In this document: one piece after another, positions 33,451 to 36,605 of the stretch | Layout: the number at the start of each line of letters is the position of its first letter | Position numbering within the stretch: position 1 is the first letter of the stretch | DNA from: a virus | Lineage: Duplodnaviria > Heunggongvirae > Uroviricota > Caudoviricetes | Length of the DNA stretch: 64,000 nucleotides | Reading direction: 5' to 3' (one strand) | IMG/VR virus record: IMGVR_UViG_3300029705_000054 | Span: 1,687-65,686 of that record | Notes under the pieces: generated by a model | Seen by the model: only the letters and a program-made list of their open reading frames with translations | Databases searched by the model: none | What the model was told of the DNA's origin: nothing | Program-made: the position numbers and the translations under genes

Positions 33451-33771
33451 ATGGCAAAACAAATTAATGCTCGTATCTAGCATAAAATAGGTACGGCCGC
33501 AGAATGGGAATTAGCTACGACTTTTATACCTTTAAAAGGAGAGTTAATTATTTATTCTGACGGTAAAGGAGGAGAATCTAAGCCTCGATTAAAAATAGGA
33601 GATGGAACGACTAAGGTAGGAAATCTTCCTTTTCTAGAATTAACTGGAGAGAAAGGTGACGATGGTTATACTCCTGTAAAAGGAACGGATTATTGGACAG
33701 ATGAAGATAAAAATGAAATAGTTTCAGCAGTAATAAATGCCCTACCTGTTTATAATGGGGAGGTAGAATGA
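33451..33771 (+). CDS. tail-fiber N-terminal domain protein (106 aa) with one in-frame TAG
   Basis: MAKQINARI-Q-HKIGTAAEWELATTFIPLKGELIIYSD...KIGDGTTKVGNLPF, the classic phage fiber N-terminus. Confidence 0.55.
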
Positions 33772-36605
33772 TGGCTGAACATAATATAAATGTAACAAGC
33801 GGATCTTCCATTCGTTTAAAAACAGCAGGTAAATATTGCGATCGTGATATTATTGTAACGGCTTTAAATGCAGATACAGAAGAACAAAGTAAACTAGCTA
33901 AAATAATTGATAGAACAATTACTGAAATAACTACACAGGATTTAGCTAATATAACAAAAATAGGACGAGCTGCTTTTGAGGGCTGCACATATCTTACAAA
34001 AATAAATATACCAAATAATATTACTTATATTGGTGATTATGCTTTTTCAAATTGTCATGGACTTGAGTCAAATGCAAATATAATTATTCCTAACACTATT
34101 ACACAACTTGGAGTAGGTGTTTTTACTAATTGTGCTAAGCTTAAGAGTTTAAGTCTACCCGATAGTATTACAAAAATAGGAGATGAAGCATTTTATAATT
34201 GTACATCTCTTATAGATATATCTTTACCCAGTAATATTTCCTGGATTGGATATCGCATGTTTAGCGGTTGTAAAGTTCTTTCAGGCATAACTCTACCTAG
34301 TAATATTACAGCAATTGGAGAGCAAGCTTTTTATGGGTGTAAGGCTCTTACACAAATGAATTTTCCTAATGGCGTTACAACTATTAGATCAAGCGCATTT
34401 GCCAACTGTACTTCAATGCAATATTACGATTTTTCTTTTCATACAAGTATACCAACTCTTGCTAATACAAGTGCTTTTTTAAACATTCCTTCAAATTGTA
34501 AAATTAGAGTTCCCTATGAACTTGTTGATGATTGGAAAGCAGCAACAAATTGGAGTGTTTATAGAGATTATATTGTAGGTATGATAACATTTTATATTGA
34601 AGGAAATGATATGCAAAAAGAATCATATTTCGCCGAGAGTGGTATGACTTGGCAAGAATGGATTGATAGTATTTCAAGTAATGATGATGCAGAATATGTA
34701 GTTCAAAATGATTATATAATAGAAAATTCTACAGGTCGATATGTGCTTTTAAATGAGTACACTGCTGTTAAACCCAGTGATGTTATTAGAATAAATCATT
34801 CATATATAGTTTCAGATTCATTACCTATTTCAACCTCAATATTTTATATCGAAGATAATCTAACGGGAGACGAGTTCTATAGATTTGAAGAAGGTATGAC
34901 TTGGCAAGACTGGGTGAATAGTGAATATGGTACATACTATATTATTCAAGATGGTTTTGTGGTAGAAGAGGGATCACAAGTAGCGGTATATTGCAATGAT
35001 GGTAGTAAGCCAGTTTTCCCAAGTAGTCTTATTATGGCAAATTATACATACACAATTGGAGACATACCAGCAGGAACAACAAGTCCAATGAGAATAGAGC
35101 TTCTTGCCGCTGAAAATACTAAAACAGTAAATATAGATTCATAGAATAGATTAACATTAAATGGTATTGACAATTTAACTTCAAATATCAACTCTATTAA
35201 TATTAATGAAAATAATGAACTTACAATTAATTATGCAACTTCAACCGACACTCAAATAGATGCTTACTTTAGTTTTGAAAACGAAACAAGTACAATAACA
35301 TTTACTATTAATGGAACAGAATACACATCTAATAGGAATATGATTTGGAGCGATTGGTGTAATAGCTCATATAATAAAGCAGGTTTTGTTCCTTATAATA
35401 GCTCATATAATCAAGACTTAATAGCAACATCTGCAACTGATGAAGATGGAGATGGATATATCGGCGCAGTATACTACAATAGCGATGATATCAAGATGAT
35501 GGTATCTTATAATGATACAATTACAGAAAATGGTGTATATTATATAGATGATTCATATATTACACTTGAAATCACTTTCACTATTGAAGGAATAACATAC
35601 ATGGCTGAGCCTGGTATGACGTGGTATGAATGGTGCGATAGCGCGTATAATACAAAGGATTTTGTTATTTGGAACTCTCTTACTGTTAACGGAGAAGAAA
35701 ACTGTGTAGCAGAATCTATTATCGATGAAGATGGAGATGGATATATCGGCGCAGTATGGCTTAATGATGGTAGCGGTAGACATTGTCGTGATTTGGATAT
35801 TATTATAGGAAGATGTAACTATTATATCGATGCTGTAGGGATTGAAGTAGAAATAACAAGCCCAATATCAATAGAGCTTCTTGCAACTGAAAATACTAAA
35901 ACAATAAATATGGGTTCGTAGAACAATGAATTAATAACCTTAAATGGTATTGATAATTTAACTTCAAATATTAACTCTATCGATATTGAAAACAATAACC
36001 TTACAATTGATTATACGACTTCAACAGATACTCAAATAGATATTTACTTTAATTTTGAAAACGAAGAAGAGCCAACACCTAGCACAATAACATTCTATAT
36101 TGACGGTAACGATGCAGGAGATGAATCATATACAGTCACCGAGGGTATGACTTGGGCTGATTTTATGAACGCCAGCGACGGCAGTTACTATGTTCCTTCT
36201 GAAAATTATTGGAGTGATCCATTGATACCTGGATATGTTTGTGAGGACATGACGGGAAATCTTATATGTTTGAGAGAAGACGAAGATGAGGATGGTAACA
36301 TCATATATAAATATGTTAAAACAAGTGATACAATCGTAGCAAATCACACATATACTCTTACAAGAACATTGCCTATAATTACCTTTACCGTTAACGGAGC
36401 ATCATACACCGCCTTAGAAGGTATGACTTGGCAAGAGTGGATTAACACTCCATATAACACAAGCGGATTTTATGTTGATGAATATAATCAGGTTATCGAT
36501 ACAAATTATTATGATAATCAGTTTTACGTCGACATCAACTCAATGTCTCAGGGTTTTGTAAAACTAACTGATATGATAATAGCAAACAACGATTATAACT
36601 CGTGA
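33768..36605 (+). CDS. receptor-binding/tail-fiber protein (~945 aa): BspA-type leucine-rich repeats followed by five ~100-aa repeats. Two in-frame TAG codons
   Basis: LRR units NITYIGDYAFSNC, SITKIGDEAFYNC, NITAIGEQAFYGC. Repeats share (E/G)GMTW(Q/Y)(E/D)W and ITF(Y/T)IEG. The frame is continuous through the TAGs at 35142 and 35919. Confidence 0.55.

What the first reader, a model, noticed from the sequence alone, without database searches (positions are those of the whole stretch)
33768..36605. Repeat-built receptor-binding protein in which both amber codons sit at the same position of a duplicated module
The ~945-aa ORF has BspA-type leucine-rich repeats (N-I-T-x-I-G-x-x-A-F-x-x-C) followed by five ~100-aa repeats that share GMTW(Q/Y)EW and ITF(Y/T)IEG. 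Its two TAG codons both follow ..TKT(V/I)N(I/M)(D/G)S and precede ..LTLNGIDNLTSNINSI.. That is, the recoded codon was duplicated together with the repeat unit. Without suppression the product would be a 458-aa LRR-only protein. With suppression it would be 717 or 945 aa. This could allow a graded, suppressor-dependent set of fiber isoforms.
Basis: seen in the sequence. Interest (0 to 1): 0.55.

Follow-up and report, generated by a model that had tools for sequence, protein, structure and literature searches.

The report
Amber-recoded phage fibre gene, duplicated insert
This is a modular tail-fibre-like gene of a gut phage that reads the stop codon TAG as glutamine; its two TAGs are copies of one codon in a duplicated 69-residue insert, which is ordinary for such phages and gives no sign of a device for making several protein lengths.

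Summary
ORF 33768-36605 is open for 945 codons apart from two TAGs (codons 459 and 718). It has a BspA-type LRR domain (Pfam LRR_5, E=1e-62). It has six, not five, 'ITFxIxG...GMTWxEW' modules (R) and two copies of a 69-70-residue cassette (T, 85% nt identity). Each T copy carries the TAG at its codon 22.

The window belongs to a TAG-to-Gln (code 15) phage:
- a tRNA with anticodon CUA lies at 47108-47182;
- 55 confident genes end in TAA or TGA (stop set fixed to TAA/TGA, so TAG termination was not independently tested);
- about 17 secure sense TAGs occur in seven genes;
- TAGs in a GIY-YIG endonuclease align with invariant Gln in standard-code homologs.

T evolves as coding sequence (dN/dS 0.39, in-frame indels). 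A public pipeline has already called the same gene as one 944-aa protein with Gln at both sites.

The shared TAG position is simple descent; about 62% of codons would survive this divergence unchanged. The TAG lies inside T, not at a domain boundary. The upstream co-transcribed gene has a TAG at codon 10. This fits all-or-none gating by the suppressor tRNA better than designed isoforms.

Graded isoforms from incomplete suppression are not excluded, but nothing supports them. New member of a known kind; low to moderate interest.

The parts
33258..33287 (+). Intrinsic-terminator-like hairpin (13-bp stem) ending the upstream MVP-like gene's unit
33289..33317 (+). Sigma-70-like promoter TTGACT-17-TATAAT (11 of 12 matches), the likely start of the fibre operon
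   Evidence: a consensus match only, function inferred
33451..33771 (+). ORF-A, 106 aa, with one in-frame TAG at codon 10 (nt 33478). It has an Mtd_N-like tail-fibre N-terminal domain followed by a Gly-rich 'GYTPVKGTDYWT' segment. Its TGA overlaps the start of the next gene (ATGA).
   Evidence: Pfam Mtd_N E=8e-7, 29.3 bits against a cutoff of 26.3, residues 9-54. phrog_6049 tail fiber protein, E=3e-5. The C-terminal half matches 'putative tail fiber protein 1' of Eggerthella phage LE2-3.
33768..36605 (+). Fibre / receptor-binding-like protein gene: 945 codons (944 from the second ATG), two in-frame TAGs read as Gln, TGA stop
33768..33866 (+). N-terminal ~32-aa anchor (MAEHNINV..RLKTAGKYCDRDIIVTA). 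It is conserved in other phage loci, where it carries unrelated C-terminal parts.
   Evidence: P0003; L006-L009
33909..34553 (+). BspA-type leucine-rich repeat domain (approximately aa 48-262)
   Evidence: Pfam LRR_5 E=1.2e-62
34578..35078 (+). R1 and R2 modules (aa 271-354 and 355-437), the 'ITFxIxG..GMTWxEW' domain
35079..35285 (+). T1 cassette (aa 438-506) with TAG at nt 35142-35144, which is codon 22 of the cassette
35289..35855 (+). R3 and R4 modules (aa 508-599 and 600-696)
   Evidence: AF2 model of R4: pLDDT 80, beta-grasp-like.
35856..36065 (+). T2 cassette (aa 697-766) with TAG at nt 35919-35921, the aligned codon of T1's TAG
36081..36602 (+). R5 and R6 modules (aa 772-868 and 869-945). 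This is the part most similar to P0003 and P0001.
36689..37789 (+). Hint-like protein gene (366 aa, no TAG), the last gene of the operon
   Evidence: Pfam Hint E=2.8e-4, below the gathering cutoff. The gene call in L005 has the same extent.
37797..37820 (+). Terminator-like hairpin (10-bp stem followed by a T run) closing the operon
47108..47182 (+). Phage-encoded amber suppressor tRNA (anticodon CUA, encoded CCA end), followed by a 12-bp hairpin
   Evidence: ARAGORN; Rfam tRNA 58.9 bits; sequence features

Best explanation
The gene encodes one 945-aa (or 944-aa) modular fibre or adhesin protein of a roughly 135-kb gut phage that decodes TAG as glutamine using its own tRNA(CUA).

Architecture: a short conserved N-terminal anchor, a BspA-type LRR domain, then three pairs of a small beta-grasp-like 'GMTW' module (R). 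Two copies of an orphan 69-70-aa beta-rich cassette (T) separate the R pairs.

T carried one TAG (Gln) codon when it was copied into a second R-R linker, so both TAGs sit at the same cassette position by descent.

How it works (inferred): host RF1 terminates at the first TAG until the phage suppressor tRNA has accumulated. Full-length protein, and any ORF-A protein at all, therefore appears only once the cell's code has been switched. This is the late-gene gating model proposed for recoded phages. The TAGs are otherwise ordinary minor Gln codons (2 of the gene's 21).

Shown here: the anatomy, TAG=Gln, the presence of the suppressor tRNA, and the coding status of T. Inferred: the timing and gating, virion attachment, and a binding function.
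For: 1. Genome-wide recoding.
- tRNA-CUA lies at 47108-47182.
- About 17 secure in-frame TAGs occur in seven otherwise intact genes. 55 confident genes end in TAA (35) or TGA (20), though the stop set was fixed to TAA/TGA when those genes were called. Gln codons are CAA 266, CAG 134, TAG at most 27.

2. TAG = Gln.
- In GIY-YIG gene 16995-17825, two of its six TAGs fall in the 'YIG-Q-T-x-Q' motif. 114 and 109 of 120 homologs have Q there, including NCBI standard-code entries P0008, P0083, P0090 and P0114.

3. The whole gene is coding in one frame.
- Frame 0 has no TAA or TGA in 945 codons, against 53 and 112 in the other frames.
- The two T copies give dN/dS 0.39 in frame 0, against 1.45 and 0.77 in the other frames. 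12 of 30 substitutions are synonymous (binomial P=0.012). Indels are +6 and -3 nt.
- The standard-code fragments (193 and 152 aa) would start in the middle of R3 and R5.

4. An ENA pipeline already calls the identical DNA as a 944-aa protein with Q at both sites.

5. T is not an RNA element: MFE z-score +0.99 and no Rfam hit.

6. Gating fits the operon.
- ORF-A has a TAG at codon 10, inside its Mtd_N domain.
- Replication genes (gyrase-like, ligase, sigma factor, RNA ligase) have no TAG.
- This matches Borges et al. (bioRxiv 10.1101/2021.08.26.457843), Babkin et al. (PMC10607447) and the proteomic proof of code 15 (PMC9523058).

7. Fibre role.
- Operon structure; Mtd_N and phrog tail-fibre hits.
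- The ORF-A end plus the N-terminal anchor recurs in a phage structural module, L006.
- R modules occur in other phage late-region proteins and in bacterial surface proteins.
Against: - There is no protein-level evidence for this phage.
- The suppressor tRNA's anticodon arm resembles the window's tRNA-Trp more than its tRNA-Gln. Gln identity therefore rests on alignments, not on tRNA features.
- The nearest full-length 'homologs with Q' (P0007, P0343) are code-15 calls of the same DNA and count for nothing.
- No diverged ortholog carrying T was found, so conservation of the TAG or of T cannot be judged.
- The AF2 model spanning T is unreliable (pLDDT 42).
- The operon lies among DNA-metabolism and accessory genes rather than in a clear tail module. 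No PHROG tail family matches the protein itself.
- Expression timing is wholly inferred.
Confidence: 0.8

Rival explanations
1. Graded isoforms. Suppression at each TAG is deliberately incomplete, so the phage makes nested 458-, 717- and 945-aa proteins. All share the N-terminal anchor and LRR domain and differ in the number of R pairs. They co-assemble or are used at different times.
For: All three products would keep the conserved N-terminal anchor, so each could in principle attach to the virion. Suppressor tRNAs compete with RF1, so some truncation is likely (general knowledge). Each TAG follows a complete R pair by only 21 residues. Both TAGs are followed by A (TAG-AAT and TAG-AAC).
Against: - The TAG lies inside the T cassette, at codon 22 of 69, so truncated forms end in a partial cassette.
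- The same position is explained by descent: P(codon unchanged) is about 0.62 at 14.7% divergence.
- TAGs elsewhere in the window sit where truncation is plainly non-functional: codon 10 of ORF-A, and codons 22 and 25 of a GIY-YIG nuclease.
- TAG is not enriched in this gene. It makes up 2 of 21 Gln codons, against a window-wide share of at most 6% (27 of 427, about 17 of them secure).
- No relative is available to show conservation of the stops.
Confidence: 0.1
2. Three separate standard-code genes (458, 193 and 152 aa), as in the JGI annotation, or a fibre gene inactivated by nonsense mutations (pseudogene).
For: JGI gene calls on L001 split it this way. The fragments are stored as separate proteins on 6-17 contigs.
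Against: - The 195- and 225-nt 'gaps' stay in frame, lack TAA and TGA, and evolve under purifying selection.
- The downstream fragments would begin in the middle of a domain.
- The window has a suppressor tRNA and many other TAG-interrupted intact genes.
- The identical TAGs persist in three samples.
Confidence: 0.03
3. T is a small mobile or removable intervening element (mini-intron, intein-like or MITE-like insertion) that is spliced out, so its TAG is never decoded.
For: T is a clean insertion relative to the linker of P0001 and P0003. It has sharp boundaries and lower GC (26% against 32%). It has no homolog among 1.84 billion representative proteins. Group I introns are present in this genome.
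Against: - The only two copies in the window both lie in this gene.
- Its length and indels are multiples of three, and dN/dS is 0.39 in the host frame.
- It shows no RNA structure signal and no Rfam hit.
- At 207-210 nt it is too small for a group I or group II intron, and it has no intein motifs (established knowledge).
Confidence: 0.04

Closest known systems
Code-15 (TAG to Gln) recoded gut phages: crAss-like phages, Lak phages, and especially the ~136-kb 'Phassvirus' group with its Enterococcus EF1-like relatives (Babkin et al. 2023, PMC10607447; Borges et al. 2021/2022; Peters et al. 2022, PMC9523058)
   Same: In-frame TAGs in intact genes, including tail-fibre genes. A phage-encoded tRNA-Sup(CUA). 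A large tRNA set (19 or more in this window). No aminoacyl-tRNA synthetase or release factor seen in this window. Contigs carrying this gene reach 135 kb. A virion protein (42207-42983) has 40-43% identity to Phass-1 and EF1.
   Different: There is no nucleotide similarity to any deposited phage. In this window TAGs are sparse and lie mostly in homing endonucleases and the fibre operon. The fibre protein's architecture (LRR_5 + R + T) is not among those described for the group.
Programmed read-through isoforms in viruses, for example the Qbeta A1 protein (a leaky UGA extends the coat protein); cited from general knowledge
   Same: A stop codon inside a structural gene could yield a short and a long product that share an N-terminus.
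   Different: In Qbeta the host decodes a natural stop at low frequency and both products are required. Here the stop is reassigned genome-wide by a dedicated tRNA. It lies inside a module, and there is no evidence that the short products are used.
BspA-like leucine-rich-repeat surface proteins (Pfam LRR_5; Tannerella forsythia BspA)
   Same: A strong LRR_5 match (E=1e-62) with the NITxIGxxAFxxC repeat signature. A presumed binding or adhesion role.
   Different: This protein is phage-encoded and has no signal peptide. It has a phage fibre-type N-terminal anchor and is followed by R and T modules. Similar LRR + R architectures exist in metagenomic proteins P0205 and P0256.
Bordetella phage BPP-1 Mtd (major tropism determinant) N-terminal domain; applies to the upstream ORF-A only
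   Same: ORF-A passes the Pfam Mtd_N gathering threshold.
   Different: ORF-A is only 106 aa. It has no C-type-lectin variable domain, and no diversity-generating retroelement was seen.

Membership tests
Genetic code 15 (TAG to Gln) recoded phage gene | In-frame TAGs interrupt otherwise intact, homology-supported ORFs | tested here: met
   This gene has 2. Other genes: GIY-YIG 16995-17825 (6), ORF-A (1), HNH 37892-38518 (1), 55679-56662 (4), GIY-YIG 56828-57775 (2), 25252-25683 (1)..
Genetic code 15 (TAG to Gln) recoded phage gene | The phage encodes a suppressor tRNA with anticodon CUA | tested here: met
   47108-47182: ARAGORN and Rfam tRNA at 58.9 bits.
Genetic code 15 (TAG to Gln) recoded phage gene | TAG positions align with Gln in standard-code homologs | tested here: met
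   In the GIY-YIG 'YIG*T-N*' motif, Q occurs in 114/120 and 109/120 homologs, including NCBI standard-code entries. The four less conserved sites show a Q/K/E/N mix. This could not be tested at the fibre gene's own TAGs, because T has no homologs.
Genetic code 15 (TAG to Gln) recoded phage gene | TAG is not used as a terminator | tested here: inconclusive
   All 55 confident genes can end at TAA or TGA, but the stop set was fixed to TAA/TGA when those genes were called. In three genes (1829-2167, 17882-18190, 26082-26732) a TAG lies 2-26 codons before that stop and could be the true terminator.
Genetic code 15 (TAG to Gln) recoded phage gene | Gln is inserted at TAG in the protein | not testable with these tools
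   Needs proteomics. It has been shown for crAss-like phages (PMC9523058).
BspA-type LRR protein (Pfam LRR_5) | Score above the Pfam gathering threshold | tested here: met
   209.9 bits against a cutoff of 27.7.
Phage tail fibre / receptor-binding protein | Conserved N-terminal attachment segment with exchangeable C-terminal binding modules | tested here: met
   The N-terminal 32 aa are 60-77% identical in P0003 and L006-L009, where they are fused to unrelated C-terminal parts.
Phage tail fibre / receptor-binding protein | Encoded in or next to tail or structural genes | tested here: inconclusive
   It is co-transcribed with an Mtd_N / tail-fibre-like ORF, and the homologous junction in L006 lies in a structural module. 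In this window, however, the operon is flanked by an MVP-like gene, HNH, DenV-like, sigma-factor and RNA-ligase genes.
Phage tail fibre / receptor-binding protein | Present in virions and binds a host receptor | not testable with these tools
   Requires virion proteomics and adsorption assays.
Programmed read-through / nested-isoform structural gene (Qbeta A1 type) | The stop lies at a domain boundary, so the short product is a complete functional unit | tested here: not met
   The TAG is codon 22 of the 69-70-codon T cassette. In the low-confidence model it falls between two predicted strands.
Programmed read-through / nested-isoform structural gene (Qbeta A1 type) | The stop codon is conserved beyond what descent predicts | tested here: inconclusive
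   Only copies at least 99.97% identical are available. Between T1 and T2 an unchanged codon is expected with P of about 0.62.
Programmed read-through / nested-isoform structural gene (Qbeta A1 type) | Both short and long products are made and used | not testable with these tools
   Needs proteomics or genetics.

The most novel reading that the evidence does not exclude
Suppression by the phage tRNA(CUA) is incomplete, and the two TAGs act as successive leaky gates. Virions would then carry a mixture of 458-, 717- and 945-aa fibres, all with the same anchor and LRR head but with one, two or three R pairs. This would give fibres of graded reach or avidity whose ratio follows suppressor tRNA level. 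The orphan T cassette would have spread within the gene because it brings such a gate with it.
Probability: 0.08. Interest if true: 0.6.

Novelty: new member of a known kind. Interest (0 to 1): 0.22.

Why it matters
For annotation: standard-code gene calling (as in JGI) cuts this fibre gene into 458-, 193- and 152-aa pieces, two of which start mid-domain. It also truncates the upstream Mtd_N-like ORF and several endonucleases. Code 15 has to be applied to this phage.

For biology: it adds a divergent, roughly 135-kb, probably Bacillota-infecting lineage to the list of TAG-to-Gln phages.

The locus also brings out two uncharacterised protein modules:
- R, a widespread small beta-grasp-like 'GMTW' domain found in phage fibres and in bacterial surface proteins (lipoproteins, pilin-like proteins);
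- T, an orphan cassette with no detectable homolog.

The isoform idea would be interesting if true, but the sequence gives no specific support for it.

Tried and rejected
- Nucleotide searches of the fibre gene (blastn) and of 25 kb of the window (megablast) against 50,697 phage records found no relative, only 57-62-nt snippets.
- A search for T-carrying relatives found none. I used word-indexed protein search, IMG/VR, JGI metagenome contigs with a T profile and exhaustive phmmer against 1.84 billion representatives. Every hit came through R modules. The residue at the TAG site in relatives therefore could not be read.
- A search for related phages through the downstream Hint-like protein in IMG/VR found nothing.
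- T is not derived from the LRR or R modules. hhalign gave no match beyond the shared STITF edge that I had included.
- T as a structured RNA was rejected: z=+0.99 and no Rfam hit.
- The tRNA's identity could not be settled from sequence. It has U1·U72, G2-C71, G3-C70 and G73, which are Gln-like features by textbook E. coli rules. Its anticodon arm, however, is nearly that of the window's tRNA-Trp. I relied on alignments instead.
- I first counted P0007 (98% identical, Q at all six sites) as evidence for TAG=Gln. I then found it is identical to the window gene except at the TAG sites, so it is a code-15 call of the same DNA and the argument is circular. The same applies to P0343.
It ran later with only two sequences and gave pLDDT 42, which is unusable for fold search.
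- A PDB sequence search with ORF-A found nothing.
- A literature search for BspA-type LRR phage fibres gave nothing specific.
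Full report
**1. What is in the sequence**

Translating 33768-36605 (+) gives 945 sense codons. TAG occurs at codons 459 (nt 35142) and 718 (nt 35919), and the frame ends in TGA. Frame 0 has no other TAA or TGA, whereas the other two frames of the same stretch hold 53 and 112. One long reading frame is therefore being maintained.

Pfam finds BspA-type LRRs: LRR_5 at 209.9 bits, E=1.2e-62, covering roughly aa 48-262.

Segment-against-segment BLASTP and motif mapping show six modules with 'ITFxIxG ... GMTWxEW', not five. 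I call them R1-R6. They start at aa 271, 355, 508, 600, 772 and 869.

A second repeat sits between R2/R3 and between R4/R5. I call it T: aa 438-506 and 697-766, nt 35079-35285 and 35856-36065. The two T copies are 85% identical in nucleotides and differ by indels of +6 and -3 nt.

The overall architecture is anchor - LRR - R1R2 - T1 - R3R4 - T2 - R5R6.

The TAGs are not errors. An independent JGI contig (L001, 99.97% identical) and an ENA contig (L005, 99.985% identical) have them too.

**2. The window uses TAG as a sense codon for Gln**

- ARAGORN and Rfam find a tRNA with anticodon CUA at 47108-47182, alongside at least 18 other tRNAs.
- Reading stop-to-stop with only TAA and TGA as stops, 55 confident plus-strand genes end in TAA (35) or TGA (20). 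Because TAG was excluded from the stop set by construction, this does not test TAG termination independently. In-frame TAGs occur in a handful of otherwise intact genes. Gln codon counts are CAA 266, CAG 134 and TAG at most 27, of which about 17 are secure.
- A GIY-YIG homing-endonuclease gene (16995-17825) has six TAGs. In an alignment with 120 homologs, the two TAGs in the conserved 'YIG-x-T-N-x' motif correspond to Q in 114 and 109 sequences. These include NCBI standard-code entries P0008, P0083, P0090 and P0114.
- One caveat: the '98% identical' hit P0007 is the same gene called under code 15, so I do not count it.
- The tRNA's own features are ambiguous. Its acceptor end is Gln-like, but its anticodon arm is almost that of the window's tRNA-Trp. 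The Gln assignment therefore rests on the alignments.
- This is the known code-15 phenomenon (Borges et al.; Peters et al. PMC9523058). A virion protein in the window relates the phage distantly (40-43% aa) to Enterococcus phage EF1 and to Phass-1. That is the ~136-kb TAG-to-Gln group of Babkin et al. (PMC10607447).

**3. The T cassette is translated in the gene's frame**

- Between the two copies there are 30 substitutions. Nei-Gojobori counting gives 12 synonymous and 18 non-synonymous changes in frame 0, so dN/dS is 0.39. The other frames give 1.45 and 0.77 and are full of stops.
- Twelve or more synonymous changes out of 30 has binomial P=0.012.
- Indels are multiples of three.
- T has no RNA-structure signal (z=+0.99) and no Rfam match.
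- The JGI standard-code fragments (193 and 152 aa) would start at the Met inside the 'NMIW' motif of R3 and the 'GMTW' motif of R5, that is, in mid-domain.
- An ENA pipeline has already called the same DNA as one 944-aa protein with Q at both sites (P0343).

**4. Origin of the 'same position'**

T has sharp boundaries (TSP...FENE). Outside them, the R modules flanking the two copies are far more diverged.

In homologs P0001 and P0003 the equivalent linker reads 'IEVE-TEEPTPSTITF' with no T. T2 is therefore a clean ~70-aa insertion.

T occurs nowhere else in the window. It has no detectable relative in a 5.8-billion-protein word search, in IMG/VR, in JGI contigs, or in an exhaustive phmmer run against 1.84 billion representatives. 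It is unrelated to the LRR and R modules.

So an orphan cassette that already contained a TAG-Gln codon was copied into a second linker. With 14.7% nucleotide divergence, a given codon stays unchanged with probability of about 0.62. The shared TAG position is therefore expected by descent and is not evidence of selection for a stop.

**5. Context and likely role**

- A strong terminator (33258-33287) is followed by a near-consensus promoter (33289-33317).
- Next comes ORF-A (33451-33771, 106 aa). Its stop overlaps the fibre gene's start (ATGA).
- The fibre gene is followed by a Hint-like gene (36689-37789) and a terminator (37797-37820). These elements define a three-gene unit.
- ORF-A passes Pfam Mtd_N (29.3 bits against a cutoff of 26.3, residues 9-54). 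It also hits phrog_6049 'tail fiber protein' and an Eggerthella phage tail-fibre protein.
- ORF-A has a TAG at codon 10, so without suppression no ORF-A protein is made at all.
- The fibre protein's first ~32 residues, together with the C-terminus of ORF-A, recur in other phage contigs (L006-L009). There they are fused to unrelated C-terminal parts. In L006 this junction lies in a capsid-tail structural module. A conserved N-terminal anchor with exchangeable cargo is the classic organisation of phage fibre or receptor-binding proteins.
- R modules recur in 439 representative proteins. These include phage late-region proteins, bacterial lipoproteins, a prepilin-like protein, and LRR+R proteins.
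- A binding or adhesive role is thus plausible but inferred. In this window the operon is not inside an obvious tail module.

**6. Isoforms or gating**

Nothing in the sequence singles out this gene as an isoform device.
- The TAG lies inside T, not between modules.
- TAG makes up 2 of 21 Gln codons here, against at most 6% window-wide.
- Other TAGs in the window sit where truncation cannot give a useful product: codon 10 of ORF-A, and codons 22 and 25 of a nuclease.
- Replication genes (gyrase-like, ligase, sigma factor, RNA ligase) have no TAG.

This pattern matches the published model in which recoded stops keep late or accessory genes silent until the suppressor tRNA accumulates.

Truncated 458- and 717-aa by-products are likely at some level, because suppression competes with RF1. 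Whether they are used cannot be judged without protein data. I put the designed-isoform reading at about 0.1.

**7. Novelty and score**

TAG-to-Gln recoding, phage suppressor tRNAs and TAG-interrupted tail-fibre genes are all described. This very ORF has been called correctly by a code-15-aware pipeline.

What is new is modest: a divergent lineage, the particular LRR_5 + R + T architecture, an uncharacterised R domain family, and an orphan T cassette.

Verdict: new member of a known kind; interest about 0.2.

Noticed in passing
window 30765-33245 (+): The gene just upstream encodes an 826-aa homolog of the eukaryotic Major Vault Protein (Pfam MVP_shoulder E=6e-26, plus Vault_3). In the phage collection its only relatives are three huge uncultured phages, LR756500, LR756501 and LR756503 (43-44% aa).
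   Followed up: partly
window 55679-56662, 56828-57775 and 57935-58162 (+): A TM + coiled-coil ORF with four TAGs ends in the first half of a GIY-YIG motif ('GIYKITHIDSGISYIGQAVNVGR*'). The rest of that domain ('NIKERWVTHVK...GLNKTRGNS*') continues in the same frame about 1.3 kb downstream. Between the two halves lies a free-standing GIY-YIG endonuclease gene with two TAGs. This looks like an intron-split gene, but Rfam finds no intron there. A 62-nt stretch at 57829-57890 is 90% identical to Lak megaphages.
   Followed up: partly
window 62177-62532 (+): Group I intron (Rfam RF00028, 78 bits, full length) between short ORFs 62062-62244 and 62614-63021. Nucleotides 62336-62392 are 95% identical to Enterocloster phages CB457P1 and CB473P1-3.
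   Followed up: no
window 16995-17825 (+): A homing-endonuclease gene carries six TAGs in 276 codons, far denser than any other gene here. HNH gene 37892-38518 and a PD-(D/E)XK-like ORF at 25252-25683 also carry TAGs. In this window, sense TAGs are concentrated in selfish or accessory genes and in the fibre operon.
   Followed up: partly
window 6423-6494, 22980-23070, 23362-23461 and 25084-25234 (+): Unusual tRNA-like genes. ARAGORN predicts two with four-base anticodon readings (tcgt, tgga). Rfam tRNA hits of 100 and 151 nt suggest tRNAs with long insertions or introns.
   Followed up: no
window 36689-37789 (+): A 366-aa protein with a weak Hint-module match (Pfam Hint E=2.8e-4, below threshold) is co-transcribed immediately after the fibre gene. 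Its role is unknown.
   Followed up: no
R modules: window 34578-35078, 35289-35855 and 36081-36602; relatives P0001, P0127-P0340: The 'ITFTINGxxYxAEEGMTWxEW' module is an uncharacterised domain of about 70-100 aa with no Pfam family. It has 439 hits among 1.84 billion representative proteins. It is often the C-terminal domain of small phage proteins and also occurs in bacterial lipoproteins and a prepilin-like protein. The AF2 model is beta-grasp-like.
   Followed up: partly
L006 5615-6372; L007, L008 and L009: The end of ORF-A plus the first ~32 residues of the fibre protein form a conserved junction in other phage contigs, followed by unrelated C-terminal sequences (123, 251 and 163 aa). This looks like a cassette-exchange point for fibre tips.
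   Followed up: partly
window ~8600-14200: A block with strongly negative GC skew (-0.27) and low GC, apparently coded on the minus strand, in contrast to the rest of the window.
   Followed up: no
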